A DNA stretch of 63,830 bases, filler included, from Reclinomonas americana ATCC 50394 (taxonomy: Eukaryota), in the NCBI GenBank assembly GCA_048213135.1. It is 5 parts of 2 records of this genome, joined end to end, with 100 filler letters (N's around TTAATTAATTAA, not from the genome) between each part and the next. Parts side by side here need not be neighbours in the genome. Positions count along the whole stretch, not along the records: positions 62,146 to 63,830 come from PS015070.1; 4 more parts are not named here. The stretch is one strand, 5' to 3'. The position numbers and the translations under genes were made by a program. This document shows positions 35,581 through 63,830 of the stretch, one piece after another. Within the stretch, counting starts at the first letter, position 1. Each line of letters begins with the position of its first letter. The notes below the pieces were generated by a model that did no database searches, had not been told where the DNA came from, and saw only the letters and a program-made list of their open reading frames with translations.

Positions 35581-37487
35581 TCAGTGGTACTTGAGCTGAC
35601 CGCGCTCACGGTGCCTCCACCGTCTCCACGACATTATGCAGAAGACGACGCCGGCCGCGAACGACAGCGAGCCCACCACGATAAAGGCGATGCCGAGGAA
35701 GTCGTTCTTGCCACCCACCCACGACGAGGTCGACAGGATGACGTACTTCTTGCCCGAGAAGCGTGACACATCGTAGCGCTCTGTGATTTGCAGATTGTAC
35801 GTGCCGGCATCCAGTGGCGCGTTGTAGATGCGGTACAGCTTGCGGAAATTCGGCAGCGCCGCCGTGCGCATCCACACCATCAAATCCTGCCCAAAAAAGA
35901 AAAAGAGAAATCGTGTCGGCGCACTATCCTTCTGTCTGTGTGCGCGTCACAGCAATCATCTGTCATATGCGCACCTCACTCGTCTGCAGTGGAATCACAT
36001 GCGTGGGCTCGTTGAGGTAGGTGCTGGGGTTGGTAAGGTACTGGCCCGGCGGTGGCGCCTTGAACTTGGTGTCGACATCGGCCGGCCACGCAATGCCTGT
36101 GCCCGTGCATGCTCCCGAGGGGTTGCCACCGTCGCAGAGCGGTGCACCGCCGCCCGGCGGCAGCAGAGAGATGGTGTCGTTGAACATGGACCACGCAATC
36201 AGGCCGCACGGCGAGTACGTCTCCAGCGGTTGCGAGTCGGCACCCTTCAGGCCCGTGACGGGGGAGCACGACGAGTCGAGAGTCGACGCCGTCACCACCG
36301 ATCCTTGCAGCTGCTTATCCGATCGCGATTGTACGTAGCGCCGATGATTCTGGTAGTAGTTGTCCAGCGCGTAGTAAATGTACACCGGTGGCTCCATGCG
36401 CTTCGGCACCGTAATCGTCAGCGAGTTGCCGCCCGTCGGCAGCTGGCACTGCCAGTTGCACGCACAGTTGNNNNNNNNNNNNNNNNNNNNNNNNNNNNNN
36501 NNNNNNNNNNNNNNTTAATTAATTAANNNNNNNNNNNNNNNNNNNNNNNNNNNNNNNNNNNNNNNNNNNNGGGGGAGGAGAGACAGAGAGAGAGGAAAGT
36601 GCAAGCGATCAAGAGACGCGCCAAGACAAGAGGGTTGCAGGCGAGAAGAGAAGCCAATCAGCAATAAAGCACATGCAACACGGACAGCATACCACAGAAC
36701 ACGAAGAAATCAGATAGAAGGCTGCTCGATGGAAACAAGCGAACGACGGCGACACGATGCGTCAGCTGACGAAGAATGAACGCATAGTGACGAGGACAGA
36801 GCAGAACACGAAAGATAAGCCAACTGAGATTGAAGGCTTTGTGCGCAGACACAAGAGTGAAGGCGACACGGGGACAGAGCAGAACGAAAGACAAGCCAAC
36901 TGAGACTGAACGCACAGACACATGAGTGAAGGCGACACAGAAGAGGCATCAAACACGGAGACTGTGGGCACAGTGAAGAGAGCAGAGCAGGTGCAACGCA
37001 GATGGCATGACATCGTTGAATGGAACACGAAAGGCAAGCCAACGGAGACAAAAGGCAGAGCGACAAGGACACGAAGCAGATACATCGCAGGATCCGCGTG
37101 TCACCGTGGACGAGCCAACAGAGACTGATGGCAGAGAACACTGAAGCGGACGACAGTGCATCATCTTCCACGTCTCCCCCCCTGCGCAACTCCTCGACTG
37201 GCCACCAAAATCGCCGCTCCCAGTGGCACGAAAAACACTCCAAAGAACACAAACGTGCCAATCACCCACGCCGGCGACAGCACCGGCTGCCACGCCCACA
37301 GACGCTGTTGCTTGAACTTGGACTCTGTGACACACGCACAACAACAAACAGAATTGAGCATCCCTCAAAACACACCCAAGCAAAGGCACATAACAACGCA
37401 ACTGCTATCGGGCTCTCGTGTCTTTTGCTTCTTCTCGCCATTCTCCTCGGCCGCTGCAGCCGCAGCACCACTTCCACCTGCTGGCAT
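35581..37487 (-). CDS. CDC50: CDC50/LEM3 (TMEM30) flippase beta subunit; spans a spacer gap
   Basis: FKQQRLWAWQP; YYALDNYYQNHRRYVQSRSDKQL; PCGLIAWSMFND; VWMRTAALPNFRKLY; GGKNDFLGIAFIVVG. Confidence 0.95.
36794..36940. repeat. Degenerate ~70-78 bp tandem duplication in CDC50 intron
   Basis: GGACAGAGCAGAAC..GAAAGAYAAGCCAACTGAGAYTGAA..CAGACACAWGAGTGAAGGCGACAC present twice. Confidence 0.75.
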
Positions 37488-40970: not shown

Positions 40971-42926
40971 ATGCGGCAACTCTTTCTCCGCGCCTTCTCG
41001 TCGTCCACGCCATCACCGGCGCCGGCAGCTGCAGCTGCAGCGGGAAAAGCCGGACGTCGCATCTCTCAAGTCGACTTGGTGCGACAGCTGGTCAACGCGC
41101 GTGGCGAGCAGCCTCCAGGTGCGCCTCAATGGGAGGGGAGAGAAAATGCAGCGATAAAAAATGAGCATCTGAGGGGGGGAATCTCTTACGGATGCATTCG
41201 CAGGTCCGCCTCCGACGCGCTTTGGCGGCAACTCCGCGCAGCTCAACGCCGACTATCACGGCGTGCTGAGCGAGTACGGACATGCGCATCCAGTGACGCT
41301 TTTCCGCGTGGGACGCGCACAACCGTTTGTGCTGGTCACGGGCGAGGCCGCCGTGCGACGTGCCCTCCGCTCGTCGCTCTACCGCAAGCCCTCGTATGTG
41401 GGCTATCAGAACTCGGCAGTCGATGCCACGGTCAGTGCTGCGCAGAAGCAGCAGCTGCATGAGCACCAGCAGCATCACCACCAGAACGATGATGGGACGG
41501 TGGTGGATCACGACAGTCAGATTGAGGAGATGCCGGCGTTGCAGGCGATTGTGCGCTCGCGGTATCCGGTGGTGTGTCGCCACCTGGGCGAGCATGTGCG
41601 TCACTTGCGGGAGCTGGTGGATGGTGGCGGCGGGCAGGCGCTGGTGGATGTGCAGACCGACAATCAGCGGCGTGCTGTGCGCATGAATTTCGAGGTCGCC
41701 CCTCCCTTCTTCCCGGTCTCCTTCCTTCCCTCCGTCGCCCTCGTTGCGCTGATTTGTCTTGCAGGTGTTGTTCAACCTCACCGACAAGGAGTTCAAGCAT
41801 CACTCGGCGGGAGCTTCTGGCTGGTGGCGCTTCATCTCGCCGCCGGCGTCGTTTGACGAAGTGGCCGACGTGATTCGGTCCACAGGTCGCGAGTTCTCGG
41901 CGCGCATGATTGACGAGTGGCGTGGCCTGAAGCATCCTCTCACCAACGTGCCGTTCATTCACGGTGTGGCCAAGGTGAGGTGACGACTGTGACGAGAGAT
42001 GGAGATGGCGTGCATTCATTGATTGTCGCATGCTTGCAGATTGCGCGCACCACCAAAGTCATGGTCGACCACCTCGACAACCTCCACGAGCCGTCGTGGG
42101 TCAGTGCCTGGGTGCAGCGCAAGGGCCTGTCGGCGTTCCGATACTACGGCAAGGTGTTTGGTCTGGTGATGGCGGCGACGCAGACGCTGCCACACACGCT
42201 CTCGTGGGCCATGTATCACTCGGCGTTGGAGCCGGAGTTCCAGGAGGGCATCCGGAGGGAGGCCGAGGCGCTGTATGGGCGTGTGATGGGCGACAACCGC
42301 ACCTGGTCGCCGTCGTCGTCGTCACTCACTGAATTCCTGGAGCGCCTGACGCCCGAGGATCTCAACGAGCTGCCCTTCACCGAACAGATGATCAAGGAGA
42401 CGCTGCGTCACTACCCGCCGTTCCCGCTGATTCAGCGTGCGCCGGTCAAGGACGACGCACTGGAGGGCTATCACGTGCCGCAGAATCTCACCGTGTCGAT
42501 TGTGCCGTGGGTGATTCACCACAACCCGGTGTATTGGGACACGCCGATGGAGTTCCGCCCGAGCCGCTTCGCCGACGACGCCGACCGCATTTCTCCGTTT
42601 GTGTATCTGCCGTTCGGACGCGGCCCCTTCAGCTGGTATGTGTGCACCTCTTTCCCTCCACCCCTGTCGTGCAACACGCTGCTGATGATTGCGTCGACAG
42701 TGCCGGCACACAATTGGCGATGATGGAGCTGAAGACTGGACTGGCGGCTGTGGCGCTGGCCATGGAGTGGCGTGTGCCGGAGGACTTGCGAATTCGATCA
42801 CTCTCACCAACCTACAGCTCGGTGGTGGCCGCCGGCGATCCACGCCGCACGGCCGTGGTGGCCGCGGTGGACATGGGTCCGCCGGGCGACCAGCGCATGA
42901 AAGTCGTCTTCACGAAGCGACAATAG
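40971..42926 (+). CDS. Cytochrome P450 with mitochondrial-type presequence (alternative ATG at 40863)
   Basis: PPG|PP hinge, KETLRHYPP, FRPSRF, PFGRGPFS|CAG heme motif split by an intron. Confidence 0.92.
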
Positions 42927-44481: not shown

Positions 44482-46131
44482 ATGCTGACGGCGATCGCAT
44501 ATCGTCGTGTGCTTGCACGCTGGTTCAGCAGCAGCGGCAGTGGCAACAACAGCGCGGGAGGGAAACGCATCGGGATCAGCAGGTGTGCACACACACACAC
44601 CTGATCGCTTCTTCTGTGCACGATCATCGCCTCGCGCGCACGAGAACCGTCGCACTGCATCGCTCTCTCTCCAACTCTCTCATAACATGCACACACGCAC
44701 GTTGCATGATCATCGCTCCATCGCCACTTGAACCATCGCTCTCGCCCACTTGAACCATCGTCGCAGCACTGTCGGCAATCGACGACCATCGTCCTCCTCA
44801 TGGAACTCTGCCACGGCCGCGGCACCTCCATCGGCCAAGCCCTTTGATCCAGTGCTCCCACGCATCACGGTCAGCCGAGGAAGCTCCTTTTTTTTTTCCC
44901 GCAATCTCTTTGTGCTCACTCTTCGCTGTGTGTAAAAGATTGTGGGCGCAGGTGGCGCCGGTGGCAACGCCGTCAACAACATGATCAGTTCGGGCCTCGA
45001 CAAGGTGCGCTTTGTCGCCTGCAACACCGACGCGCAGGCGCTGGAAATGTCCAAGGCGCCGGTTCGGATTCAACTGGGACCGGGCACGACGCGAGGACTC
45101 GGTGCAGGCGCCGATCCGGAGACCGGTCGCACGGCGGCCGTGCAGTCAATGGACGAGATCGTCAAGGCCATTGAGGGCTCCAACATGCTGTTTTTGACGG
45201 CGGGAATGGGCGGTGGCACGGGCACTGGTGCGGCGCCAGTGATCTGCGAGGAAGCACGTAATATGGTGCGCAACAGCTGCTGCTGCTGCTGCTGCTGCTG
45301 CAGAAGCAACGAGACGTATATATCTTGTGGCGCTGACTTCTTTTTTCCCATCAGGGGATTTTGACGGTGGGAGTGGTGACGAAACCGTTTCACTTTGAGG
45401 GCGCCAATCGGATGCGAGTGGCCGAGCAGGGCATGGCGGTGTTGCGCAAGGCGTGCGACACACTGATTGTTATTCCGAATCAAAACCTCTTTCGTGTCAT
45501 CTCCAAGAAGACGCCACTGAAGGAGGCGTTCCACATGGCCGACGAGGTGTTGTACACGGCCGTAAGGTGCGTTGCAGTGGTGGTGGTGGTGGTGGTGGAA
45601 AGGTTTGTTCACATGTGCACGTGCAGATCGGTGACGGATCTCATGCTGGTGCCCGGCCTGGTCAATCTCGATTTTTCCGATGTGCGTGCCGTCATGATGA
45701 GTGAGTCTGGTCGCGCGCTGATGGGAGTCGGACGCGCCACGGGCGATGATCGTGCCGTGGTCGCCGCGGAAAAGGCCATTACGTTGCGCACCCTTACTCT
45801 TCTTCTTCCTTGCTGTCATGGTCTCACCTCGCGTATGCATGCAGCAACCCGCTGCTGGACGACATTTCACTGCGCGGCGCCAAGGCAGTGCTGGTCAACA
45901 TCACCGGCGGTCCCGATCTCACACTGTTGCGTGTCGTTGTAGTGGTGGTGGTGTTGGTGGTGTTAGCGAAAGAAACTGACCAAACCACGCAACAGCTTCG
46001 AGGTCGAGGCAGCAGCAGAGCGCGTACGTCGCGAAGTCTTTGAGGACGCCAACATTATCTTTGGCAGCGCGTTTGACGACAAGCTGGCCGGCTGGATCAG
46101 TGTCTCTGTGGTCGCCTGTGGCATTCCCTAA
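44482..46131 (+). CDS. ftsZ: Mitochondrial FtsZ, short form without C-terminal tail; 7 exons
   Basis: Presequence [69 protein letters not shown]; stop after VVACGIP. Confidence 0.96.
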
Positions 46132-49760: not shown

Positions 49761-49874
49761 CTGACGAGAATAGGNNNNNNNNNNNNNNNNNNNNNNNNNN
49801 NNNNNNNNNNNNNNNNNNTTAATTAATTAANNNNNNNNNNNNNNNNNNNNNNNNNNNNNNNNNNNNNNNNNNNN

Positions 49875-52732: not shown

Positions 52733-55357
52733 TCACTTGGGCATCTCCAGGGACACCACGTGTGCACCACTGGCTGCCGCCTGCTGCAGTAATTGTTGCC
52801 TGGTCTCCTGGTGTCGTGCCTGCGTGGCCTCGAATGATCGCATGAGTTCGTCAAAATCAATAGCCGAGCCGTGTGCGGAGGCACTCGCAGTCGACGCCGA
52901 GCTACTGGGACAACCGCACACGCCGTGAGTATCAATGCCCTCCTCCATCTCTCCCAGCGCGCACACCGCAGCAGACGCAACGGTGGTGTCGCCACGGTGT
53001 GCATTTGTAGAATGGAGAGGGTGGAGACGCTCTTCAGGCGGTTCTTCAGCGTGTCGTAGGCGGAGCTCTGCGGCAGCAGCATGAGGATGCCGTACAGGGT
53101 CTTGAGCAAATGTGGACACTTGGCCGGCTCGAGCAGCTGCAGTCTCAAATCTGCACACGAGAGTGAGGACGGAAACAAGCAGTACGACGGGAGTGAAGAC
53201 GCACAGGAGAAAATCGGCGACTCCAGCAACTGCACCAGCTTGTCGACTTGTACCAGGAAACTGACTGTGATTTCGCACTCGGCAAATCGTGAAATGAGAT
53301 TGCTGGCGTGCTCGTACGACTGCGACAGGAGGCAGAGGCTGAGCGTGGCCACTGGGTTGTTGCACCACGACGGGTACAATGTGGTAAACAGCTTGCGACC
53401 CTGCATACATCGGCCTCGTTAGCAACTCGACGCCAACCACACTACTGCTCTTTCTCTCTCTTTACCTCCTCATCCACTGGTGCTCGTCGAATGGCGTTGC
53501 GCAGTTGACTCAGCTCTTGCGCGGTCAGCAGAATCATATTCAGTGTTTGCACCATGGTGCTGGCAAACTCAATGTCCTGCCCCATGTGCACATGAGAGTG
53601 AGTGGGTCGGCAAGTCATCCTTGCATCCGCACACAACAAAAAAGCGCACCTTTTCTCGCTCCAAATTCTGTGCCAGCGCCGAGTAGATCGAAGGTGGTGA
53701 GAGCATCATGCTCAGCGTGCGAATGATGAAGCCGGCCTTGTTCAGCAGCTCCTGGTCGGTGGAGAACAGCTCCAGCAGCGAGGTCATGAAGCGCTGGAAG
53801 ATATCCTCGTTGGCCGAGAAGCGGGCCAGCACTTCCAAGTCCAGCGAAATGACCTTGTCTGACCGATCCGACAGCGTCTTTAGCAGCAGCGGGAACAGCT
53901 CATCAATGTGCGCCAGCGTGGCATCGGGATCCTTGCGGAACAGCATGATGATCCAGTTGAGGGCGGCCACGCGTGTTGGCACAAAGTGCTTCACCAGTTC
54001 GACGGCCACCACTTGCAGAATGGCGGCCAGATCAAAGGAACTCGAGGCGCCATTCACCAGCGTCTGAATGCTGATGTTGATGCGCGATGCAATCTGCCGG
54101 ATATCTGCATCGCGCGATGTGTGAGTCCACGATCCACAGGGTGACAAAAAGAACAAGTGAACGCAACTCTCTTGCCTGTGTGAGATGCACGGCAACACGG
54201 CACCCAACACGGCGGCCGCGTGGGGCAGCAGCACCTGACCGGCCTCGGCGAGGAATTCGTGCGCCCAGTTGAGGGCGGTGAGGCACGTGAAGTCGTCCTT
54301 GCTGCCTGAATGCACAATCACAATGTCGACCAGGGCCGGATAATTGGTGGTCTCCTGCTTCATCTCCCGCAGGAATTCGCCGAGAGTGGTGTCGGCTTGC
54401 GTGCGGATCTCCTCGTGTGGGTCGCTGAGCATGCGGAACAGACCGTCGAGGAACTCGGGCAGGTACGGCACCAGCGACGTGTCGGGGATCGAATTCAGCA
54501 CCGAGATCCACGACACGAGAAACTGGCGCACAAACGCATTCGTGGCCATGATGCGATCGCGCAGCAGCTGCACAAAGGTGCGAGTGTCGAACTTTTCGCT
54601 CTCCGCCACAATGTCCTTGATGAGGCGATCCAGCAGCTCACACCCGGATTTCACTTGTGCATCGGGATCGGCGCTCAGCTGCGGCGTTGGGAGGAAGGTG
54701 GTGAGCGACGGGAGGAGCAAGAGAAGGGGAGAGAGGACTCAACTCTGCAGAGGCCATCAAAGATCTCGGCAAAGTAGCGCAGCATGCTTCCACGAGCGAC
54801 CTTGGCCACATTGTACAGTGCCTCGGATGCATGAAATCGCACTTTGCTGTCCTGATCGCCCAGGCACTGCAAAATCGGCGGCACCAGTGTATCCAGGAAC
54901 TCGTGCACATCCTGCACACACACGCACACGGGGTGAGCGTGAGTGGTCAGAGAAGAGTGGCCATGTTTGGCAATGCTCGTTCGCTCTCTCTCCTGCCCCC
55001 TTTGCTCTCTCTCCCTCTGCACACCTGCAAGAGTGCCACGGCGACAGCAGCCAGCGCGACCAGACCGCCCTTGCGCGAGTTTGGTTGGACCGAGTTGACA
55101 AACTCTTTGGTGAGTCCCGAGGTCAGCTCGGGAATGCGTCGTTGTTGCTCGTTTCGTTGTCGGATCTGAGTGGATGATGGGGAGAAGGAGCGCAGTGAGT
55201 GGGGTGCGCACAGAGAGAGAGAGAGAGAGACAGACAGAGGAACACGGCAGAGGGTCACCTGTCTGACGAGTTGATCGACCTCGAGAGCGCCCTGCTTGCG
55301 CTTCTCGGGGATCTTTTCCGAGAGGTTTTTGATGGCGTTGGCGCTCAACAGCTCCAT
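52733..55357 (-). CDS. VAC14: PIKfyve complex scaffold VAC14; 9 exons
   Basis: [78 protein letters not shown]. Confidence 0.96.
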
Positions 55358-55894
55358 GGTGCGGGTTGCAACGCGCAGACTCTCAGTCAGGTGCAAGGAT
55401 CTTCCGAGCAGGACATGGTGATCATGCATTGATCACCTCCTCCTCCTCCTCGTCGCTGCAAAGGCTGCAGCACGTTGTACAAGATGAAAGGACAGCTCAT
55501 GTCTCCGGTGGCCAGCATTGCAGCCGCCCTTGCGCGAGCGCATGCATTGTGCATGCCATGTCGACGTCCTGCTCCTCGTTTCTCGCAGGAACAGCTCCCG
55601 TCCGCTGCTGCCAGTCGATGCCACATCTCGAGGTAGATAGTGCATACACGGTCTGTATCATCGCTTGATGCAACACTGCCGCGCATGCTTCATGATCGAC
55701 GTCGCGACGTCGACGTTGGAATGCAGATCTCCCTCTCCATCACCGTCTCCTTCGCAGCCGACGCGTCGATAGGAAGCAAACACAGCGCACTGCACGCCTC
55801 TCCCACAATCGTCGCACAATCGCGATCGGAGCTTCGTTTTTGCCGCGGAGTTCGTCGACGTAACGGTCAACTTTTTTTCGTCTTCTTCGATCAG

Positions 55895-58433
55895 ATGTGG
55901 CAGTGGGCAAGCCGGCGGCTGCAAGCCGGCTCGCTCACTGGCATCCGCCTTGCTGCATCACTGCTGGGCATCGGCGGCCTCGCGACAGGCGCTGTGCTGC
56001 TGAGCGCACCCGACAACTCGGCGCCGCCACCACCAGAGACCGCAATCAACAACAATGGTGGTGGTGGTGGAAATGGTCAAGTGGCGCCCGTGGACGTGAC
56101 CAAGACTGTGCCGCGGAGACTCGAGCAGATCCATCGTTTGCACAGACGCCAGTTCGACATGCTCATCATTGGCGCTGGTGTGTGTGTCTCATCCCTCTTC
56201 CGTCTCTTTGCATGCTCTCACATGTGCGCAATCAGGCTGTGTGGGTGCTGGTGCGGCCGTGGACGCCACTGCACGTGGTCTGTCGGTGGCACTCATTGAG
56301 ATGGATGACTTTGCGTCGGGCACCAGCAGTCGCAGCACCAAGATGATGCAGTTGCGCTTCCTCATCTCACAAATCATCATCGATTAAGTCGGTCCTTGAC
56401 GGATTGTTGTCGCTCAGTGGCGGAGTGCGCTACCTGGAAAAAGCCATCAAGCAGCTGGATCGTGCGCAGTTCAACCTGGTGATGGAGGCGCTGCATGAGC
56501 GCTCCACGTTCTTCAAGATCGCACCGCACCTGTCGCACCAGCTGGCTATTCTCACCCCGCTCTACTCGTGGTGGGAGGTGCCGTACGTGTGGTTTGGCTT
56601 GAAGGTGAGCAGAGTCACCGTGCCACTCTGCATATCTCTCTCTACATCTTTCCTCACCTTCCTTTTGCCAGATGTACGACTGGATCTCTGGCACGCACCG
56701 ACTGCGACCGTCGCGTTTCGTGTCGCGATCCAAGGTGCTGCGCAAGAATCCCATGATCCGTGCCGAGGGGCTGTGTGGTGGCGTGCTGTACTACGACGGC
56801 AGCTTTGACGATGCTCGAATGAATGTGACGCTGGCCGTCACAGCGGCCTCGCTGGGCGCCACAGTGGTCAACCACATGAAGGCGGTGCAGATTCTGCACG
56901 ACGAGAACGGTCGTGTGTGTGGTGCGCGTGTGCGTGATCAGCTGACGGGCGAGGAGTTCAATGTGGCGGCCAAGTCGGTCGTCAACTGCACCGGCGCCAT
57001 GAGCGATCAGGTCAAGCAGCTCGACAATCCCCAGGCCAAGACCTCCACCATGGCGTCGTCGGGTGTGCACCTGGTGTTCGACACACTGTTCTTTGAGTCG
57101 ACGGAGAACCCGTATGATGTTGCGCGCACGCACCATCGTGACTCTCTGCATGAGTTTGAATGCTCATCCCTTTCGTTGCGCAGCTGCCCTCGGTGGGCTT
57201 GCTCATCCCGAAGACCAAGGACGGCCGAGTTGCGTCGCCCGCTCTCTCCGTTCCCTCCTGCAGCGCGCCAACTCACGATCCTGTGTCTCCAATCGCACAA
57301 TAACAGGTCCTGTTCATGCTTCCGTGGCACGGTGCGTTGCTGGCTGGCACCACCGATAATCCAGCCCGAGTAGAGGCGAACCCCACGCCTTCCGAGGAGG
57401 ACATTCAGTACCTCCTCGAGTATCTCAGTCAGTACTTCAATGTCGAGTTCAAGCGCGAAATGGTGTCGGCGGCCTGGGCCGGCATTCGGCCACTGGCAGT
57501 GGTCAGTTCTCTTTTCATGAAAGACTAGTGCGACGGCCCTTTCTCACTGTCTCTCCCTCTCCGCACAGGACCCGAATGTTTCGCAGGATGCCGGCTCGGG
57601 CACGGCGGCCGTGTCGCGTGAGCATCTAATCACCGTCTCGAGCGCCGGCCTGGTGAGCATCCAGGGCGGCAAGTGGACCACGTACCGCACGATGGCGGCC
57701 GAGGTCGTCGGCAAGGCCATTGAGGTGTGCGGCCTCAAGCCGCCACACGCCGACGGCAAGACGCAGGATCTAGTGCTACTCGGCGGCCACACATTCCCTC
57801 GCGACAATCCTCGCTATTTCGCCAAAATCCTCCGCGTGCGACATGCAGTAGACCGAGACCGTGCGTGCCAGAGAAGAGAGAACTCACTTTGCCTTTTTTC
57901 CTTGCTGACAAAACTCTGGCGCAGTCTCGTTCTACTTGACCAACAAGTACGGGGATTTGTCGACTCAGGTGCTGCGCTACGACCGCTCGTTTGTGGAGCA
58001 CAGCATGGAGGAACTGCACCGGAGGCAGAAGCGACCGGGGTCTGCGCGCAAGTGGCGTCAGCCAGTGGTGTACAAGCGACTGCATCCGTCGTACCCGTTC
58101 CTGGTGTGCGAAATCGACTTTACGGTGGAGCACGAGTACGCTCGCACACTGGTGGACGTCGTGGTCAATCGACTGCGTGTGGTCAGTTGTTTCCCGCTGC
58201 TCCCCCCTCTTTTTCCCAATAGTGACTGAGTTTGTTCTCTTTGCAATGTGCAGCCCTTCTTCAACGACCACCTGGCGCACATGATCGCGCCCCGTGTGGC
58301 CGATCGCATGGCGCACTTGTTGGCTTGGTCCGACGAGGAGCGCGCTCGCCAGCTGGACGACTGCCACCAGTACATTTCCAAAATGTCGGGCCGGCCTGTG
58401 CCTCCCATGCCGCCGACGTACCAGTCGAATTAG
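55895..58433 (+). CDS. GPD2: Mitochondrial FAD-dependent glycerol-3-phosphate dehydrogenase; 9 exons
   Basis: [62 protein letters not shown]. Confidence 0.95.
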
Positions 58434-59526: not shown

Positions 59527-61074
59527 ATGATGCGCTGCGCTCCCATCGACGAGGCTCCTTTTCCTGTTTGTTGACTGGCTCTCTCTCTCGCTCTCTCTCT
59601 CTCTTTGTGTACACGCACAGATCCGGCCACTGTGGCCGCCTCGGCTGTTGACCCCAATTCCTGGGCCGCCCTCCATCCCACCTGGGCCGAGTTTGTGTCT
59701 CCCTCGTGTTGGCGCGCTGCACTGGTACGTGAACGTGTGTACACGCACGCGCGCATGGAATTTATGGGCCTAAAACTCTAAACTCTTCTCGCTGTATTTG
59801 GAAATCACGCAGAGTGAGTTTGTCGGCATGATGATGTACGTCTTCACGTCGATGGCGTCCATCGTGTCGGCCGTGGTCTACGGTTTCAAGGTGGGTGTGC
59901 GCGTCGTCCACCACTGCCACAAGAGCATGCGTGATGACAGAGAGAGTGTGTGTGTGCATGCGCGCAGCCGGCCGCGCCCATTATCGGAGTCATGCATGCC
60001 ATCTTCCTGACGCTGTACATTTTCGCTGTGGCGCCGGCCTCTGGCGCTCACCTCAACACGCCCATCACGCTGGCCACAGTCGGCACCGGCCTCTGCTCCA
60101 TCCCTCGCGGCATTCTCTACCTCATCGCGCAGACAGCTGGCGCCGTCGTCGGCGGTCTCATGCTGCGTGTGTTTGTGTCCACGGACGTGCAGAACCTCAC
60201 GCACCTCGGCGCTTGTGCGGTGGGCGACATGCCGTACGCCACGGCGCTGCTATTCGAGACCTTCTTCACCTTCATCTACCTGTATTTGTCGTTTGGATTG
60301 GCCCTCGATCCGCGGCAGGGCAAGATCTTTGGGCCTGTCGTGGCGCCGGTGCTCGTCGGTGCCACGCTCGGCTTTATCATTTTCGTGTCTGGCGGTCTCG
60401 CCTCGGATCGCGGCTACGGTGGCGCGGGACTGAACTCGGCCCGCTGTCTCGGAACAATGGTTGGCGGCGCCGTGTACAAGGGCTGGTGGATCCACTGGGT
60501 GGGCGATGGTGCGTACAACGTGTTGCTGTTGTTACAGGAGGAAACGAGGAGCGCTCACTGGCAGGGATCACCCTCCACAGTATTCGCCTGCGTGCTCTTC
60601 CTCGGTCTGTACAAGCTCGTGCCCTTCTACCACGACCGCAAGTACAAGAAGAAGAAGAACGAAGACGCCGATGGCGACATGCTGGACAAGGATGTCGCCG
60701 ACCTCGGCTCGCTGTCGGGCGAGAACTCAAACGACGACGAGGACCGCGGCAGCAGCGCGGGATCCTCGTCCGGTCGCCGGCGCATGGCACTGCCCCGCAA
60801 GGCACCCATGTGGTTCAAGCGCATGATGGCCGTCGCCAAGTCTGCCTCGCAGGCATCCATGTCGGCCTCCAAGGCCTCCATGCACGCGGCGACAGCGGCA
60901 GCTGGAGGTGCACTCGGGCAGCAAACAAGAAGTGGCCACGCCTCGCGATCGTCAGGCGCCAGCACACCACGCGGCATGCACATGCACACCCGCCCCACCA
61001 ACACGCCGTCGTCGCCAGGCACGGTGGATGAGTTGGCCTTGGACTCGGACGAGCGCCTGAACGAGGTACTGTAA
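59527..61074 (+). CDS. Aquaporin (MIP), XIP-like, with long disordered C-tail; start uncertain
   Basis: WRAAL|SEFVG, ASGAHLNTPITLA, YLIAQTAGA, FGLALDPRQ, GYGGAGLNSARCLG, WIHWVG. Confidence 0.9.
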
Positions 61075-61999: not shown

Positions 62000-62264
62000 G
62001 TGTGCATTCTATGCGTCTTGTGTGAGTGCAAGCGTGTGTGTTGACNNNNNNNNNNNNNNNNNNNNNNNNNNNNNNNNNNNNNNNNNNNNTTAATTAATTA
62101 ANNNNNNNNNNNNNNNNNNNNNNNNNNNNNNNNNNNNNNNNNNNNCTCCCTCGTCCCTCTCCCTCTCCCTCTCCCTTTTCCCTCTCCTTCTCCCCTCTCC
62201 CCCTCTCCCCTCTCCCCCCTCTCCCTCTCCCTCCCTCCACTCACTCCCTTTCCCCCCCACGTAG

Positions 62265-62717
62265 GCCCGCTCCCTCGGCTACCCCACCGACTGCGTCTTC
62301 CGCTCATTCTGCATCACCGGCGTGGACCCGTTCCCACAACTGCTGCTCGCCCCCGCGCTGGCCATTCCGCAGGCGCTGGACGACGCCGGCCTCACCATTG
62401 ACGACATTGATGTGTTTGAGATCCACGAGGCCTTTGCGGCGCAAGTGCTGAGCACCATTGAGGTGCTGAAGTCGGAGGAGTTTTGCCGCAAGCGCCTCGG
62501 TCGCTCCAAGCCCGTCGGTACGATTCCGCTCTCCAAGGTCAACCCGCACGGCTCGTCGATTGCCGTCGGCCATCCGTTTGCGGCCACGGGCGGGCGACTG
62601 GTGACGGCGGCCGTCAACGAGCTGCGCCGCACCGGCAAGCGTTTTGCGCTGCTCAGCATCTGTGCGGCGGGAGGTCTCGGCGGAGTGGCCATTATTGAGA
62701 GGAGGGGAACAGCGTGA
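62265..62717 (+). CDS. HADHB: 3-ketoacyl-CoA thiolase (trifunctional-enzyme beta/FadI type), last exon
   Basis: VDPFPQLLLAP, FEIHEAFAAQV, GSSIAVGHPFAATGGR, CAAGG. Confidence 0.88.
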   Translation, partial: ARSLGYPTDCVFRSFCITGVDPFPQLLLAPALAIPQALDDAGLTIDDIDVFEIHEAFAAQVLSTIEVLKSEEFCRKRLGRSKPVGTIPLSKVNPHGSSIAVGHPFAATGGRLVTAAVNELRRTGKRFALLSICAAGGLGGVAIIERRGTA

Positions 62718-63640
62718 GGGGGTGTGGTTGGATAGGAAGTGGGGAGTGGAAGAGGAGAGGCGGAAAAGAAAATGAAGGAGAGAATTGAGTTTTTATGACG
62801 ATGGGGTTTGGTGAAGCATGATGACAATGGAGTGAGCCACATCATGCTGCGCAGATACTGGAGGACAGCGGAGCACCAAACAGCAATGGCGAGCACGGGT
62901 TGATTGCAGGAGTTGGCCAGCAGATTGTAGCAGGACTCGGGGTGCAGCAGGATGCCACGATGGGCGGCGGCCATCAGTTCGCGCAGTGCTCGGATCGAGA
63001 GGCCGACGACATCAAGGCGACGACTCCACCGCTGACAGCGCTGCCGCAAGATGGCCTCCAGCAGGAACGACTCGAATGCGGCGCCACGCAATGACGAACG
63101 CATGCGCTTCAGCAGGCGCAGTGCGGCGGCCTCCTTCGCGTGTGGTCTCCACTGTGTCGTGAACGTCCACTCGGATCCGTCAGCCGCTGACGGAATCAAG
63201 TAGACGTCGTTGCCCATGTCGACAGCAGGCACCAAGTCGCACGACAGCGTCAGCGCGGCGTCAGGCAGTGGCAGCCGCACGACCACAGCCGGGTAGTCCC
63301 ACACCGCACCGCCATCCAGGTGAACAAACGTGTCACAGATGCGCTGCACAATGCCGCCGAGACCAACTCTGGCCACCTGCTCGCCCGACACAAGCACCAG
63401 CACATCCAAGTCGGCCGCGCGACTGACCACAGTGCGCTTGGCGCGACTGCCGGCGAGAACAACAGGAAGCGCGAGTTGACGAGCGAGTGAGGAAACGAGC
63501 ACGCCAACACTCTCATCGTCTCTGTCGCACGCTCCCAGCGCCAGCATCGACCTTGTGTAAAACTCAACAATTATAGAGAGTGAGCGATCAAACGGATGGA
63601 AACTGTCCTCCGAGGCGGGCTGTGAGAGCTGTGCATGCAT
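62279..63640 (-). CDS. CD-NTase/SMODS/OAS-like pol-beta nucleotidyltransferase, intronless (domain ~63547-62835)
   Basis: LAGSRAKRT.....DLDVLV, SCDLVPA, YLIP....W..T, LRLLK, SFLLE, LHP...NL. Confidence 0.75.
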   Translation of the reverse strand: MHAQLSQPASEDSFHPFDRSLSIIVEFYTRSMLALGACDRDDESVGVLVSSLARQLALPVVLAGSRAKRTVVSRAADLDVLVLVSGEQVARVGLGGIVQRICDTFVHLDGGAVWDYPAVVVRLPLPDAALTLSCDLVPAVDMGNDVYLIPSAADGSEWTFTTQWRPHAKEAAALRLLKRMRSSLRGAAFESFLLEAILRQRCQRWSRRLDVVGLSIRALRELMAAAHRGILLHPESCYNLLANSCNQPVLAIAVWCSAVLQYLRSMMWLTPLSSCFTKPHRHKNSILSFIFFSASPLPLPTSYPTTPPHAVPLLSIMATPPRPPAAQMLSSAKRLPVRRSSLTAAVTSRPPVAANGWPTAIDEPCGLTLESGIVPTGLERPRRLRQNSSDFSTSMVLSTCAAKASWISNTSMSSMVRPASSSACGMASAGASSSCGNGSTPVMQNERKTQSVG

Positions 63641-63652
63641 GCATGGGCTGGT

Positions 63653-63829
63653 TCACTTCTTATCGTTAGCGTCGTCGGAGAGCGCAATCCGCCCGACATC
63701 AATCAGCGCCGCCGCCAGGCTTCCGACGGCGCCCGCGAGCACCGCGCGACCCGGCGCCACTGTCAAGTACATGGCGGCGGCGGCGACCGGAAAGGCGACA
63801 GAGCGCGCTGTGATGGCCTGTCCTCCGGC
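63653..63829 (-). CDS. 3' end of a probable membrane protein, truncated by window edge
   Basis: Open frame AGGQAITARSVAFPVAAAAMYLTVAPGRAVLAGAVGSLAAALIDVGRIALSDDANDKK*. Confidence 0.45.
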   Translation of the reverse strand, partial: AGGQAITARSVAFPVAAAAMYLTVAPGRAVLAGAVGSLAAALIDVGRIALSDDANDKK

Positions 63830-63830
63830 C

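What the first reader, a model, noticed from the sequence alone, without database searches (positions are those of the whole stretch)
62835..63640. Intronless cGAS/DncV-like (SMODS/OAS-type) nucleotidyltransferase in an intron-dense protist genome
Seen: GS-R-AK-R-T (G at ~63451), D-L-D (~63412), a third acid in CDLVPA, then YLIP..W..T, RLLK, SFLLE and LHP...NL, with no apparent intron over ~240 codons while most neighbouring genes have many. Established: this motif order is typical of bacterial CBASS CD-NTases (SMODS) and 2'-5' OAS, which make cyclic or 2'-5' oligonucleotide immune messengers; eukaryotic copies outside animals are patchy. Inference: a compact, possibly horizontally acquired second-messenger synthase for antiviral defence, with all three catalytic Asp intact. 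The usual Trp after RLLK is missing and lobes look shortened, so it may be divergent or decaying.
Basis: partly seen in the sequence, partly recalled or inferred. Interest (0 to 1): 0.78.

Follow-up and report, generated by a model that had tools for sequence, protein, structure and literature searches.

The report
Divergent cGAS/DncV-like nucleotidyltransferase in a protist
A small unannotated gene in a draft protist genome encodes a very divergent relative of the bacterial and animal enzymes that make nucleotide alarm signals against viruses, with its catalytic residues intact but no detectable close relatives and no known partner.

Summary
A minus-strand ORF from ATG 63640 runs about 250-270 codons without a stop. 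It carries, in order, G64-S65...T70, D77-x-D79, D135 (CDLVPA), R175-LL-K178 and S191-FLL-E195.

It matches only CD-NTase/SMODS profiles:
- NCBIfam CBASS_cyclase_b, E 1.6e-6
- PADLOC Cyclase, E 6.4e-6
- my own HMM of 16 bacterial CD-NTases, 30.1 bits against 3.6 or less for 2001 controls
- hhalign probability 94%

Pfam SMODS stays below its cut-off (14.4 against 26.5 bits). Codon usage is host-like. The same scaffold holds an intron-bearing thiolase exon, so bacterial contamination is unlikely.

No single-sequence relative turned up in 1.84 billion representative proteins or in three contig collections. Horizontal transfer therefore cannot be tested.

Open points:
- The 3' end is unresolved, because the frame has no stop near the domain end.
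- An in-frame TGA separates the ORF from a coding-like upstream frame.
- The window joins several scaffolds with artificial linkers, so "neighbouring genes" are not physical neighbours.
- No RNA run was listed, no receptor could be searched for, and no product is known.

Eukaryotic SMODS-like CD-NTases (eSMODS) were described in 2023. I read this as a new, unusually divergent and compact member of a known kind.

The parts
62897..63640 (-). Confident coding part of the CD-NTase-like ORF (codons 1-248). It comprises the N-terminal helix, the Pol-beta-type NTase core and the first helices of the C-terminal lobe.
   Evidence: Open frame. GC1/2/3 of 0.67/0.47/0.71 resembles known exons. Codon-usage log-likelihood is +0.23 bits per codon, against 0.01 or less in the five other frames. 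HMM and hhalign alignments cover residues 59-207. AF2 pLDDT by ten-residue block is 72-97 for residues 41-200.
63638..63640 (-). Proposed start codon ATG
   Evidence: It is the first ATG after the in-frame TGA. It leaves 63 residues before G64, inside the 48-66 range of the 16 bacterial comparators.
63446..63451 (-). G64-S65 of the GS-x-A-x-x-T activation loop
   Evidence: Invariant columns G64, S65 and T70 in alignment A1, 17 of 17 sequences.
63404..63412 (-). D77-L-D79, the first two metal-binding acids
   Evidence: Invariant columns D77 and D79 in A1.
63236..63238 (-). D135 in CDLVPA, the third catalytic acid
   Evidence: It aligns with D or E in the h-[DE]-h-VP motif of the bacterial CD-NTases.
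63056..63118 (-). R175-LL-K178 and S191-FLL-E195, the C-lobe motifs shared by CD-NTases and OAS
   Evidence: R175 and K178 are at least 90% conserved in A1. They align to RLxKxW and SxxLE of the profile.
62828..62896 (-). Uncertain 3' end of the coding sequence. It is either read through (VLAIAVWCSAVLQYLRSMMWLTP...) or holds a possible 50-nt intron (62896-62847; donor GTGCTC, acceptor GCGCAG).
   Evidence: AF2 pLDDT is below 50 for residues 232-271. Codon-usage signal is lost after about codon 250. Introns confirmed elsewhere in the window are 60-73 nt, with GTGCGT, GTTGCG or GTGCGC donors and GCAG acceptors. The splice is my inference, not shown.
62793..62795 (-). TAA in the alternative frame, reached after the putative 50-nt intron or a 1-nt indel. 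It would end the protein at about 265 aa.
   Evidence: Frame-0 translation ...HDVAHSIVIMLHQTPSS*. The main frame has no stop until 62279 and there runs antisense through the thiolase exon, with non-coding GC1/2/3 of 0.48/0.64/0.73.
63653..63655 (-). In-frame TGA four codons upstream of the ATG
63656..63829 (-). Upstream open frame (58 codons, Ala/Gly/Val-rich, running off the window) in the same frame as the NTase ORF
   Evidence: Codon-usage log-likelihood is +0.24, against -0.03 or less in the other frames. No Pfam or PHROGs hit. By my own estimate from the local base composition (no call), roughly one random frame in four would stay open over 58 codons, and three of the six frames are open here.
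62295..62717 (+). Convergent neighbour: last exon of a thiolase gene (Thiolase_C), ending in TGA. A CT-rich tract lies upstream where the Thiolase_N domain would otherwise be.
   Evidence: Pfam Thiolase_C, E 2.3e-35. Stop codon. CT-rich repeat at 62150-62257.
62046..62145 (.). Artificial scaffold-joining linker (N44-TTAATTAATTAA-N44). It marks the start of the scaffold that carries the ORF.
   Evidence: Identical linkers lie at 10481-10580, 36471-36570 and 49775-49874.

Best explanation
The ORF is a genuine gene, or a very recently genuine one, of the eukaryotic host. It encodes a compact protein of about 265-271 aa that is a highly divergent member of the cGAS/DncV-like nucleotidyltransferase (CD-NTase, SMODS-type) group. 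Its nearest profile-level relatives are the short bacterial CBASS cyclases of the CdnC/CdnD/CdnE kind.

Shown here: the fold-defining motifs and the catalytic constellation (G64-S65 loop; D77, D79 and D135 for two metal ions; R175 and K178 and S191...E195 in the helical lobe) are all present in the right order and spacing.

Inferred, not shown: the protein binds two NTPs and joins them into a cyclic di- or trinucleotide, or a short linear oligonucleotide, that acts as a second messenger, most plausibly in defence against viruses.

Unknown: what switches it on and what reads its product.
For: Profile matches are specific to CD-NTases:
- Pfam SMODS was the only family listed at E up to 10.
- Seven of the 8 PADLOC hits are 'Cyclase' models, best 6.4e-6.
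- NCBIfam CBASS_cyclase_b gives 1.6e-6.

My own controls:
- An HMM of 13 bacterial CD-NTases scores 24.6 bits, against 1.9 or less for 2001 controls.
- An HMM of 16 scores 30.1 bits, E 3.6e-8, against 3.6 or less.
- Only 1 of the 1374 window ORFs hits that HMM.
- hhalign against the 16-sequence profile gives probability 94.4%, E 8.5e-8, over residues 59-207.

G64, S65, T70, D77 and D79 fall in invariant columns, and R175 and K178 in columns at least 90% conserved.

The atlas ranks SMODS clusters first at 0.95 (23 of 30 hits). With SMODS and NTP_transf_2 left out, CD_NTase_C clusters come next at 0.91 and 0.90, ahead of Mab-21 (0.87) and DZF (0.86).

AF2 with the 17-row alignment gives pLDDT 74.4 and pTM 0.69, with ten-residue block means of 72-97 over residues 41-200. 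Foldseek's best hit is CdnC 6u7b (1.8e-6), followed by cGAS, CdnD and CdnE. In the VIA-align wide search, ranks 1-15 are all CD-NTase, cGLR or OAS chains (Z 12.8-10.9). PAP and TUTase chains start at rank 16 (Z 10.8).

The coding signal is host-like in both halves: +0.22 and +0.24 bits per codon, against 0.25-0.63 for 8 of the 9 known exons left out in turn. The N-terminal length fits the family. The scaffold is eukaryotic, because it holds a thiolase exon preceded by a CT-rich tract rather than by Thiolase_N.
Against: - The curated cut-offs are not reached: Pfam SMODS 14.4 against 26.5 bits and NCBIfam 28 against 200 bits. All 16 bacterial comparators hit SMODS at E of 0.01 or better; the ORF does not.
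- No relative was found by any single-sequence search. Conservation in any other organism, the usual sign of function, is therefore unshown.
- The structure model and its fold matches lean on an alignment made only of CD-NTases. Without it the model fails, with pLDDT 37.5.
- The gap between CD-NTase and PAP/TUTase folds is only about 2 Z units.
- The C-terminal 40 residues are low-confidence, and the frame has no stop near the domain end.
- The segment between the third acid and R175, which in relatives carries the W..T.P...N region, is shorter than in all 16 comparators.
- No expression data, partner gene or product could be examined.
Confidence: 0.55

Rival explanations
1. It is a decaying relic. 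On this reading a CD-NTase gene, native or once transferred, is no longer functional, and the open frame survives only because stops are rare in 63% GC DNA and no indel has yet hit it.
For: - The frame has no stop at the domain end and runs antisense into the thiolase exon.
- An in-frame TGA separates it from a coding-like upstream frame.
- It has no relatives anywhere.
- It is sub-threshold for the curated models.
- The D135-R175 segment is shortened, and the C-terminus is low-confidence.
Against: - All seven family-wide conserved positions and the third acid are retained.
- There is no frameshift over about 750 nt, although the other five frames carry 4-8 stops in the same stretch.
- Codon usage is still host-like in both halves.
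- The missing stop can be explained by a 50-nt intron or a draft-assembly indel that reaches the TAA at 62793-62795.
Confidence: 0.2
2. It is the C-terminal catalytic part of a longer protein. On this reading the hydrophobic N-terminal extension is encoded by the in-frame upstream ORF (63656-63829 and beyond the window), and the TGA at 63653-63655 is a sequencing error or a recent nonsense mutation. The alternative within this rival is that the two are separate genes packed almost end to end, operon-like.
For: The upstream frame is the same frame and has coding-like codon usage, +0.24 against -0.03 or less. Only 4 codons separate the TGA from the ATG. The assembly is a gapped draft made of many short scaffolds.
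Against: - By my own estimate from the local base composition (no call), a 58-codon open frame has roughly a 1 in 4 chance here, and 3 of the 6 frames are open in this stretch.
- The upstream fragment has no family hit.
- The 63 residues before G64 already match the full N-terminal length of the bacterial enzymes, 48-66, so no extension is needed.
- TGA closes the thiolase ORF on the same scaffold.
Confidence: 0.1
3. It is a nucleotidyltransferase of the same fold but another job: RNA tailing (PAP or TUTase), CCA addition, a catalytically silent DZF- or MiD-like scaffold, or nucleotidylation of a protein or small molecule. On this reading it is not a messenger synthase.
For: - The fold search cannot separate the families sharply. 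PAP, TUT7, NF90/NF45, MiD49 and GLD-2 score Z 10.2-10.8, against 10.9-12.8 for CD-NTases.
- An archaeal CCA model hits at E 0.066.
- Atlas DZF clusters score 0.86 once SMODS is left out.
Against: - No PAP_assoc, NTP_transf_2, DZF, Mab-21 or OAS1_C hit appears in Pfam at E up to 10.
- The CCA hit covers only the GS-DxD stretch, residues 54-95.
- Every significant profile hit is a CBASS cyclase.
- The catalytic acids are present, unlike in DZF or MiD scaffolds, whose lack of them I state from recall.
- At about 270 aa there is no room for an RNA-binding or tRNA-binding domain.
Confidence: 0.08
4. It is a chance open frame in GC-rich DNA, or a bacterial contaminant.
For: The window has 90 ORFs of at least 180 aa, many plainly spurious. 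The scaffold is short and sits in a chain of unplaced pieces. No annotated protein corresponds to it.
Against: - 0 of 2001 shuffled or reversed controls, and 0 of the 1373 other window ORFs, come near its HMM score.
- Codon-position GC and codon usage pick out exactly this frame.
- The same 1.7-kb scaffold carries an intron-bearing thiolase exon and the CT-rich repeats typical of the other scaffolds.
- No bacterial genome or metagenome contig holds a relative.
Confidence: 0.05

Closest known systems
Bacterial CBASS CD-NTases of the short type: NCBIfam NF041117 CBASS_cyclase_b, and the solved P. aeruginosa CdnD (6p82), E. coli MS115-1 CdnC (6p80) and CdnE enzymes
   Same: - Same motif order and spacing: GS...T, DxD, h-D-h-VP, RLxK, SxxLE.
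- Same overall size class. The comparators are 253-381 aa and this ORF about 270 aa.
- These are its best and only significant profile matches.
- The profile that includes the ORF finds CdnC (4e-69), CdnD and CdnE first in the PDB.
- The comparator with the highest identity to the ORF in the alignment (L081, 19%) is itself closest to P. aeruginosa CdnD (6e-26).
   Different: - Identity to the comparators is only 13-19%, and it falls below both curated cut-offs.
- It does not match the longer CD-NTases of about 400 aa at all (13-sequence HMM).
- The segment after the third acid is shorter than in all 16 comparators.
- The C-terminal W..FG..F ending of the bacterial enzymes has no convincing counterpart.
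- It sits in a eukaryotic scaffold beside a thiolase. No Cap effector, HORMA or Trip13 gene lies in the 1.7 kb that can be seen.
eSMODS, the eukaryotic SMODS superfamily of Culbertson and Levin, PLoS Biol 2023 (PMC10732462; I read passages of the main text and searched its supplementary tables)
   Same: Both are eukaryotic proteins outside the cGLR and OAS families whose top Pfam domain is SMODS. The paper describes them as nested in bacterial clade D and of unknown function. Some entries in the paper's hmmscan table also have sub-threshold SMODS scores, for example 18.1 bits.
   Different: - The paper reports that all 12 eSMODS have an NTP_transf_2 (PF01909) hit and 8 of 12 a Polbeta hit. This ORF has neither at E up to 10.
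- eSMODS were found in predicted proteomes. This ORF matches no predicted protein in two large protein libraries.
Animal cGAS and cGLRs (Mab-21) and 2'-5' oligoadenylate synthetases
   Same: Same two-lobed NTase fold and catalytic triad. cGLR1 (8gjw, Z 12.8), cGAS and OAS1 (4rwn, Z 10.9) are among the best structural matches. The R..K and S..LE motifs of the helical lobe are shared with OAS, which I state from recall.
   Different: There is no Mab-21, Mab-21_C or OAS1_C profile hit. The ORF is about 80-100 residues shorter than the matched chains, so it has no room for the nucleic-acid-binding platform or zinc ribbon that I recall in cGAS.

Membership tests
CD-NTase / SMODS (PF18144) | Score at or above the curated family cut-off (Pfam gathering score 26.5 bits; NCBIfam NF041117 200 bits) | tested here: not met
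   Pfam SMODS scores 14.4 bits, E 0.046. NF041117 scores 28 bits, E 1.6e-6. All 16 bacterial comparators hit SMODS at E of 0.01 or better, and the ORF does not.
CD-NTase / SMODS (PF18144) | Statistically significant, family-specific profile similarity | tested here: met
   PADLOC Cyclase 6.4e-6, and 7 of 8 PADLOC hits are Cyclase models. My own HMM gives 30.1 bits against 3.6 or less in 2001 controls. hhalign probability is 94.4%. It is the only hit among 1374 window ORFs.
CD-NTase / SMODS (PF18144) | GS activation loop plus the [DE]-h-[DE] ... [DE] catalytic triad | tested here: met
   G64, S65, D77 and D79 fall in invariant alignment columns. D135 aligns with the D or E of h-[DE]-h-VP.
CD-NTase / SMODS (PF18144) | C-terminal helical lobe with the RLxK(W) and SxxLE motifs | tested here: met
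   R175 and K178 are at least 90% conserved, and S191...E195 align. The Trp is replaced by Met, as it is by L or M in 5 of the 16 comparators. The last 40 residues or so are unresolved.
CD-NTase / SMODS (PF18144) | Two-lobed cGAS/DncV-like fold | tested here: inconclusive
   The model built with the CD-NTase alignment has pLDDT 74.4 and its best matches are CdnC, cGLR, CdnE, CdnG and CdnD. The alignment drives the model: the single-sequence model failed. PAP and TUTase chains are within 2 Z units.
CD-NTase / SMODS (PF18144) | Synthesis of a cyclic or linear oligonucleotide messenger, and a cognate effector or receptor | not testable with these tools
   No whole genome is held for this window. 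Only 1.7 kb of the scaffold is visible. No biochemistry was possible.
eSMODS (Culbertson and Levin 2023) | SMODS is the top-scoring Pfam domain | tested here: met
   SMODS is the only Pfam family listed at E up to 10, though sub-threshold. The criterion is quoted from the paper.
eSMODS (Culbertson and Levin 2023) | NTP_transf_2 (PF01909) also predicted, as the paper reports for all 12 members | tested here: not met
   No PF01909 hit at E up to 10.
eSMODS (Culbertson and Levin 2023) | Falls in the eSMODS clade inside bacterial clade D in a phylogeny | not testable with these tools
   [quoted passage not shown] Pairwise similarity of the ORF to any CD-NTase I held is 9.4 bits or less, too low for a reliable tree.
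OAS family | OAS1_C (PF10421) helical domain | tested here: not met
   No hit at E up to 10. OAS1 appears only as a structural match at Z 10.9.
cGLR / Mab-21 | Mab-21 (PF03281) or Mab-21_C profile match | tested here: not met
   No hit at E up to 10. Atlas Mab-21 clusters score 0.87, below the 0.9 lead line.
PAP / TUTase / CCA-adding enzymes / DZF | PAP_assoc, CCA or DZF profile match | tested here: not met
   None appears in Pfam at E up to 10. The archaeal CCA model TIGR03671 reaches E 0.066 over residues 54-95 only, 12 bits against a cut-off of 281.

The most novel reading that the evidence does not exclude
This is the founding, so far single, member of a lineage-specific eukaryotic CD-NTase family. 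On this reading the family arose from a CdnC/CdnD-like CBASS cyclase independently of cGLRs, OAS and the published eSMODS. It has been pared down to a core of about 265 aa with a shortened acceptor-side segment. It works as a stand-alone sensor and synthase of a nucleotide messenger in protist antiviral defence, possibly tethered to a membrane if the in-frame hydrophobic upstream ORF belongs to it.
Probability: 0.25. Interest if true: 0.65.

Novelty: new member of a known kind. Interest (0 to 1): 0.45.

Why it matters
CD-NTases link bacterial CBASS immunity to animal cGAS-STING and OAS-RNase L signalling. How often, and in what form, eukaryotes outside animals kept or acquired such enzymes is an open question. 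The only systematic survey I read (PMC10732462) worked from predicted proteomes and found just 12 eSMODS.

This ORF shows that very divergent, unannotated copies can hide in draft protist assemblies, below the curated family cut-offs. The eukaryotic repertoire is therefore probably under-counted.

If the enzyme is active, its small size and shortened acceptor-side segment would make it a useful minimal model. It could show what determines product identity, and how such an enzyme is regulated without the bacterial partner proteins.

If it is a relic, it documents the loss phase of such a gene.

Tried and rejected
**Single-sequence homology, all blank**
- The search for homologous proteins, near lengths, at E of 1e-3 and then E of 10: none of the 8000 scored candidates passed.
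- phmmer against 1.84 billion representatives: 0 hits at E of 1e-3 or better.
- PDB phmmer: only two unrelated chance hits, E 0.34 and 0.84.
- The search for related loci in genome, viral and metagenome contigs: 0 confirmed of 522, 104 and 597 pattern matches.
- Six-frame search of 401 Pseudomonadota genomes: 4 matches at E 0.001-0.006. Each covers a different part of the query and two contain stops. I read them as chance.
- PHROGs: no hit.

**Expression.** No RNA holder was listed for 62200-63830.

**Whole genome.** None is held. I made no search for paralogues, STING, SAVED, TIR, HORMA or other receptors.

**Structure.** The single-sequence AF2 model was unusable, with pLDDT 37.5.

**Clade assignment.** Pairwise phmmer against 29 bacterial CD-NTases gave 9.4 bits or less. 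I built no tree, since it would not be reliable.

**Search for a lost C-terminal piece in another frame or a paralogue in the window.** Nothing was found.

**Mobile-element boundaries.** No convincing repeats flank the ORF; only low-complexity CT repeats and short chance pairs appeared.

**A very short intron (28 or 37 nt) to remove the upstream TGA.** Rejected. It would break the frame, and it is far shorter than the 60-73 nt introns seen elsewhere.

**Earlier findings of this scan.** Nothing by place, sequence or words.

**Rows dropped**
- From the 15 loci, I dropped L092 (a 129-aa fragment) and L088 (a 615-aa high-GC ORF with an unclear start) before building the HMMs.
- From the 28 loci, I used 16 non-duplicates: 3 in the 'short' set and 13 in the 'long' set. 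L105 and L110 are fragments and were not used.

**Organism.** I did not try to name it.
Full report
**What is there.** On the minus strand an ORF opens at ATG 63640-63638 and has no stop until 62279 (453 codons). Its first 250-270 codons or so read, in order:
- a helical N-terminus
- G64-S65-RAKR-T70
- D77-L-D79
- C134-D135-LVPA
- YLIP, then W158 and T160-162
- R175-LL-K178
- S191-FLL-E195
- H233-P234...N239-L240

**Is it coding, and whose is it?**
- Codon-position GC over codons 1-270 is 0.67/0.47/0.71, like Pfam-supported exons in the window (0.59-0.73 / 0.40-0.49 / 0.66-0.85).
- The tail 62279-62830 shows 0.48/0.64/0.73, which is not coding in this frame. There the frame simply runs antisense through the last exon of a thiolase gene.
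- A codon-usage log-likelihood trained on 2049 codons of known exons gives +0.23 bits per codon for the ORF's frame (+0.22 and +0.24 for its two halves). The five other frames give 0.01 or less. Eight of the nine training exons, left out in turn, give 0.25-0.63.

The window is not one piece of chromosome. Linkers of N44-TTAATTAATTAA-N44 lie at 10481-10580, 36471-36570, 49775-49874 and 62046-62145, and they show that at least five scaffolds were strung together. Only 62146-63830 is physically linked to the ORF.

That short scaffold is eukaryotic. It starts with CT-rich repeats, and CT and GT microsatellite runs also sit at scaffold and gap edges elsewhere in the window. It also carries a Thiolase_C exon (E 2.3e-35) that is preceded by the CT-rich tract rather than by the Thiolase_N domain, so an intron must lie there. 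Bacterial contamination is thus unlikely.

The 'neighbours' lie on other scaffolds, and one of them is a 1007-codon intron-free WD40 ORF.

**What family?** Curated libraries point one way only, but weakly.
- Pfam lists only SMODS (E 0.046, 14.4 bits, cut-off 26.5).
- PADLOC lists 8 families, 7 of them 'Cyclase' models, best 6.4e-6.
- NCBIfam lists CBASS_cyclase_b (1.6e-6, 28 bits, cut-off 200), CBASS_cyclase_a (0.13), and an archaeal CCA model (0.066) that covers only residues 54-95.

To test this independently, I collected bacterial CD-NTases from 401 Pseudomonadota genomes. NF041117 gave 15 of 401 genomes at E of 1e-5 or better, and PF18144 gave 26 of 401.
- An HMM of 13 of them scores the ORF 24.6 bits, against 1.9 or less for 2000 shuffles plus the reversed sequence.
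- An HMM of 16 'short' enzymes scores 30.1 bits (E 3.6e-8), against 3.6 or less for the controls.
- An HMM of 13 'long' enzymes of about 400 aa does not find it at all.
- Among the 1374 six-frame ORFs of the window, only this one hits (27.9 bits, next best 2.6).
- hhalign of the ORF against the 16-sequence profile gives probability 94.4%, E 8.5e-8, over residues 59-207.

In the 17-row alignment, G64, S65, T70, D77 and D79 are invariant, and R175 and K178 are at least 90% conserved.

The protein-language-model atlas ranks SMODS clusters first (0.95; 23 of 30 hits). With SMODS and NTP_transf_2 excluded, CD_NTase_C clusters come next (0.91 and 0.90), ahead of Mab-21 (0.87) and DZF (0.86).

The profile that includes the ORF finds CdnC, CdnD (cAAG synthases), CdnB and CdnE first in the PDB. 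OAS, DncV and cGLRs follow, and CCA enzymes come last. The bacterial comparator with the highest identity to the ORF (L081, 19%) is itself nearest to P. aeruginosa CdnD.

**Structure.** Alone, the sequence does not fold in AF2 (pLDDT 37.5). With the 17-row alignment the model reaches pLDDT 74.4 and pTM 0.69. Ten-residue block means are 72-97 over residues 41-200, and residues 232-271 are below 50.

Foldseek puts CdnC (6u7b, 1.8e-6) first, then cGAS, CdnD and CdnE. The search that does not rely on Foldseek gives CD-NTase, cGLR or OAS chains at ranks 1-15 (Z 12.8-10.9), and PAP, TUTase, NF90 and MiD49 from rank 16 (Z 10.8 and lower).

This agrees with the sequence evidence but is not independent of it, because the alignment consists of CD-NTases. 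The gap of about 2 Z units to the tailing enzymes is small.

**How divergent?** No single-sequence method finds any relative:
- 0 hits in 1.84 billion representatives
- none in the word-indexed library, even at E of 10
- none in bacterial, viral or metagenome contigs
- only chance-level matches in 401 genomes
- 9.4 bits or less against any of the 29 CD-NTases I held

Identity to the comparators is 13-19%. The ORF is small but in range: 271 aa against 253-381. Its N-terminus (63 residues before the GS loop) and its C-terminal segment (39 residues counted from H233; comparators 37-87) fit the family. The stretch between the third acid and R175 is 41 residues, counted from C134 in every row, which is shorter than in all 16 comparators (minimum 47, median 54.5). 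The Met in place of the Trp after RLLK is shared (as L or M) by 5 of the 16 comparators and is no sign of decay.

**Loose ends in the gene model.**
1. *The 3' end.* The frame lacks a stop. Introns confirmed in the window (in the FtsZ and VAC14 genes) are 60-73 nt, with GTGCGT, GTTGCG or GTGCGC donors and GCAG acceptors. A 50-nt candidate (62896-62847; GTGCTC...GCGCAG) after codon 248, or equally a 1-nt assembly error, would lead to 17 more codons and the TAA at 62795-62793. That stop lies about 75 nt from the thiolase stop. This is my inference, not shown.
2. *The 5' end.* The frame is closed by a TGA four codons before the ATG. Upstream of it, the same frame is open to the window's end (58 codons, hydrophobic) and has coding-like codon usage, +0.24. 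By my own estimate from the local base composition (no call), it could be chance at roughly 1 in 4. It could also be the end of a tightly packed upstream gene, or an N-terminal extension cut off by an error or a nonsense mutation. The window ends too soon to tell.

**How it most likely works.** By homology, the protein should hold two divalent cations on D77, D79 and D135. It should position the donor triphosphate with S65 and the R175/K178/S191 lobe, and join NTPs into a cyclic di- or trinucleotide or a short linear oligonucleotide that signals to a receptor.

Shown: the residues and their order, and family-specific similarity. Inferred: activity, product and a defence role. Unknown: the activator and the receptor.

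I put 0.55 on a live CD-NTase-type enzyme. The rivals are 0.2 for a decaying relic, 0.1 for the catalytic end of a longer or interrupted protein, 0.08 for a same-fold enzyme with another job, and 0.05 for chance or contamination.

**Comparison with what is known.** Culbertson and Levin (PMC10732462; I read passages and searched the supplementary tables) defined eSMODS. These are 12 eukaryotic proteins, from Amoebozoa, choanoflagellates, Ancyromonadida and one sponge. Their top Pfam domain is SMODS, all have an NTP_transf_2 hit, and they nest in bacterial clade D.

This ORF shares the first trait but not the second, and the third could not be tested. It works like a CD-NTase by every motif test, yet fails the curated thresholds. 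I therefore file it as a new, unusually divergent member of a known kind, not as a proven eSMODS.

A literature search for newer reports of protist CD-NTases (listing and abstracts only) showed none that bears on it. Supplementary alignments of the 2023 paper, which I could not see, may hold closer relatives.

**Verdict.** The horizontal-transfer and antiviral-function claims remain untested. Interest is moderate.

Noticed in passing
window 10481-10580, 36471-36570, 49775-49874, 62046-62145: Identical 100-nt linkers (44 N, TTAATTAATTAA, 44 N) show that the window is a chain of at least five separate scaffolds. Gene neighbourhood across these points is artificial. Ten further N gaps of 20-660 nt lie inside the scaffolds, several of them flanked by GT or CT microsatellites.
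   Followed up: yes
window 63653-63829 (minus strand): A hydrophobic, Ala/Gly/Val-rich open frame runs off the window end. It is in the same frame as the NTase ORF, is separated from it by a single TGA, and has coding-like codon usage (+0.24 bits per codon). It has no family hit.
   Followed up: partly
window about 45361-45942 (plus strand): An FtsZ gene of alphaproteobacterial (mitochondrial) type. One 70-aa exon is 62-71% identical to the FtsZ of Rhizobiales and other Alphaproteobacteria. The gene is interrupted by 60-nt and 62-nt introns with GTGCGT and GTTGCG donors. This points to a eukaryote that keeps a bacterial-type mitochondrial division protein.
   Followed up: partly
window 7456-10476 (minus strand): A 1007-codon ORF without introns. 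Residues from about 400 to 1000 are WD40 beta-propellers. The N-terminal 400 residues or so were not identified among the 25 families shown.
   Followed up: partly
window 53572-55382 (minus strand), 55637-58226 (plus strand), 59938-61071 (plus strand), 41917-42723 (plus strand): Ordinary housekeeping genes with short introns: VAC14 (Fab1-binding and Fig4-binding regions), an FAD-dependent glycerol-3-phosphate dehydrogenase (DAO and DAO_C), a major intrinsic protein (aquaporin) and a cytochrome P450.
   Followed up: partly
window 62715-62795: The thiolase stop (62715-62717, plus strand) and the nearest usable stop for the NTase ORF (62793-62795, minus strand) lie about 75 nt apart. The two convergent genes would therefore have overlapping or abutting 3' untranslated regions.
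   Followed up: no
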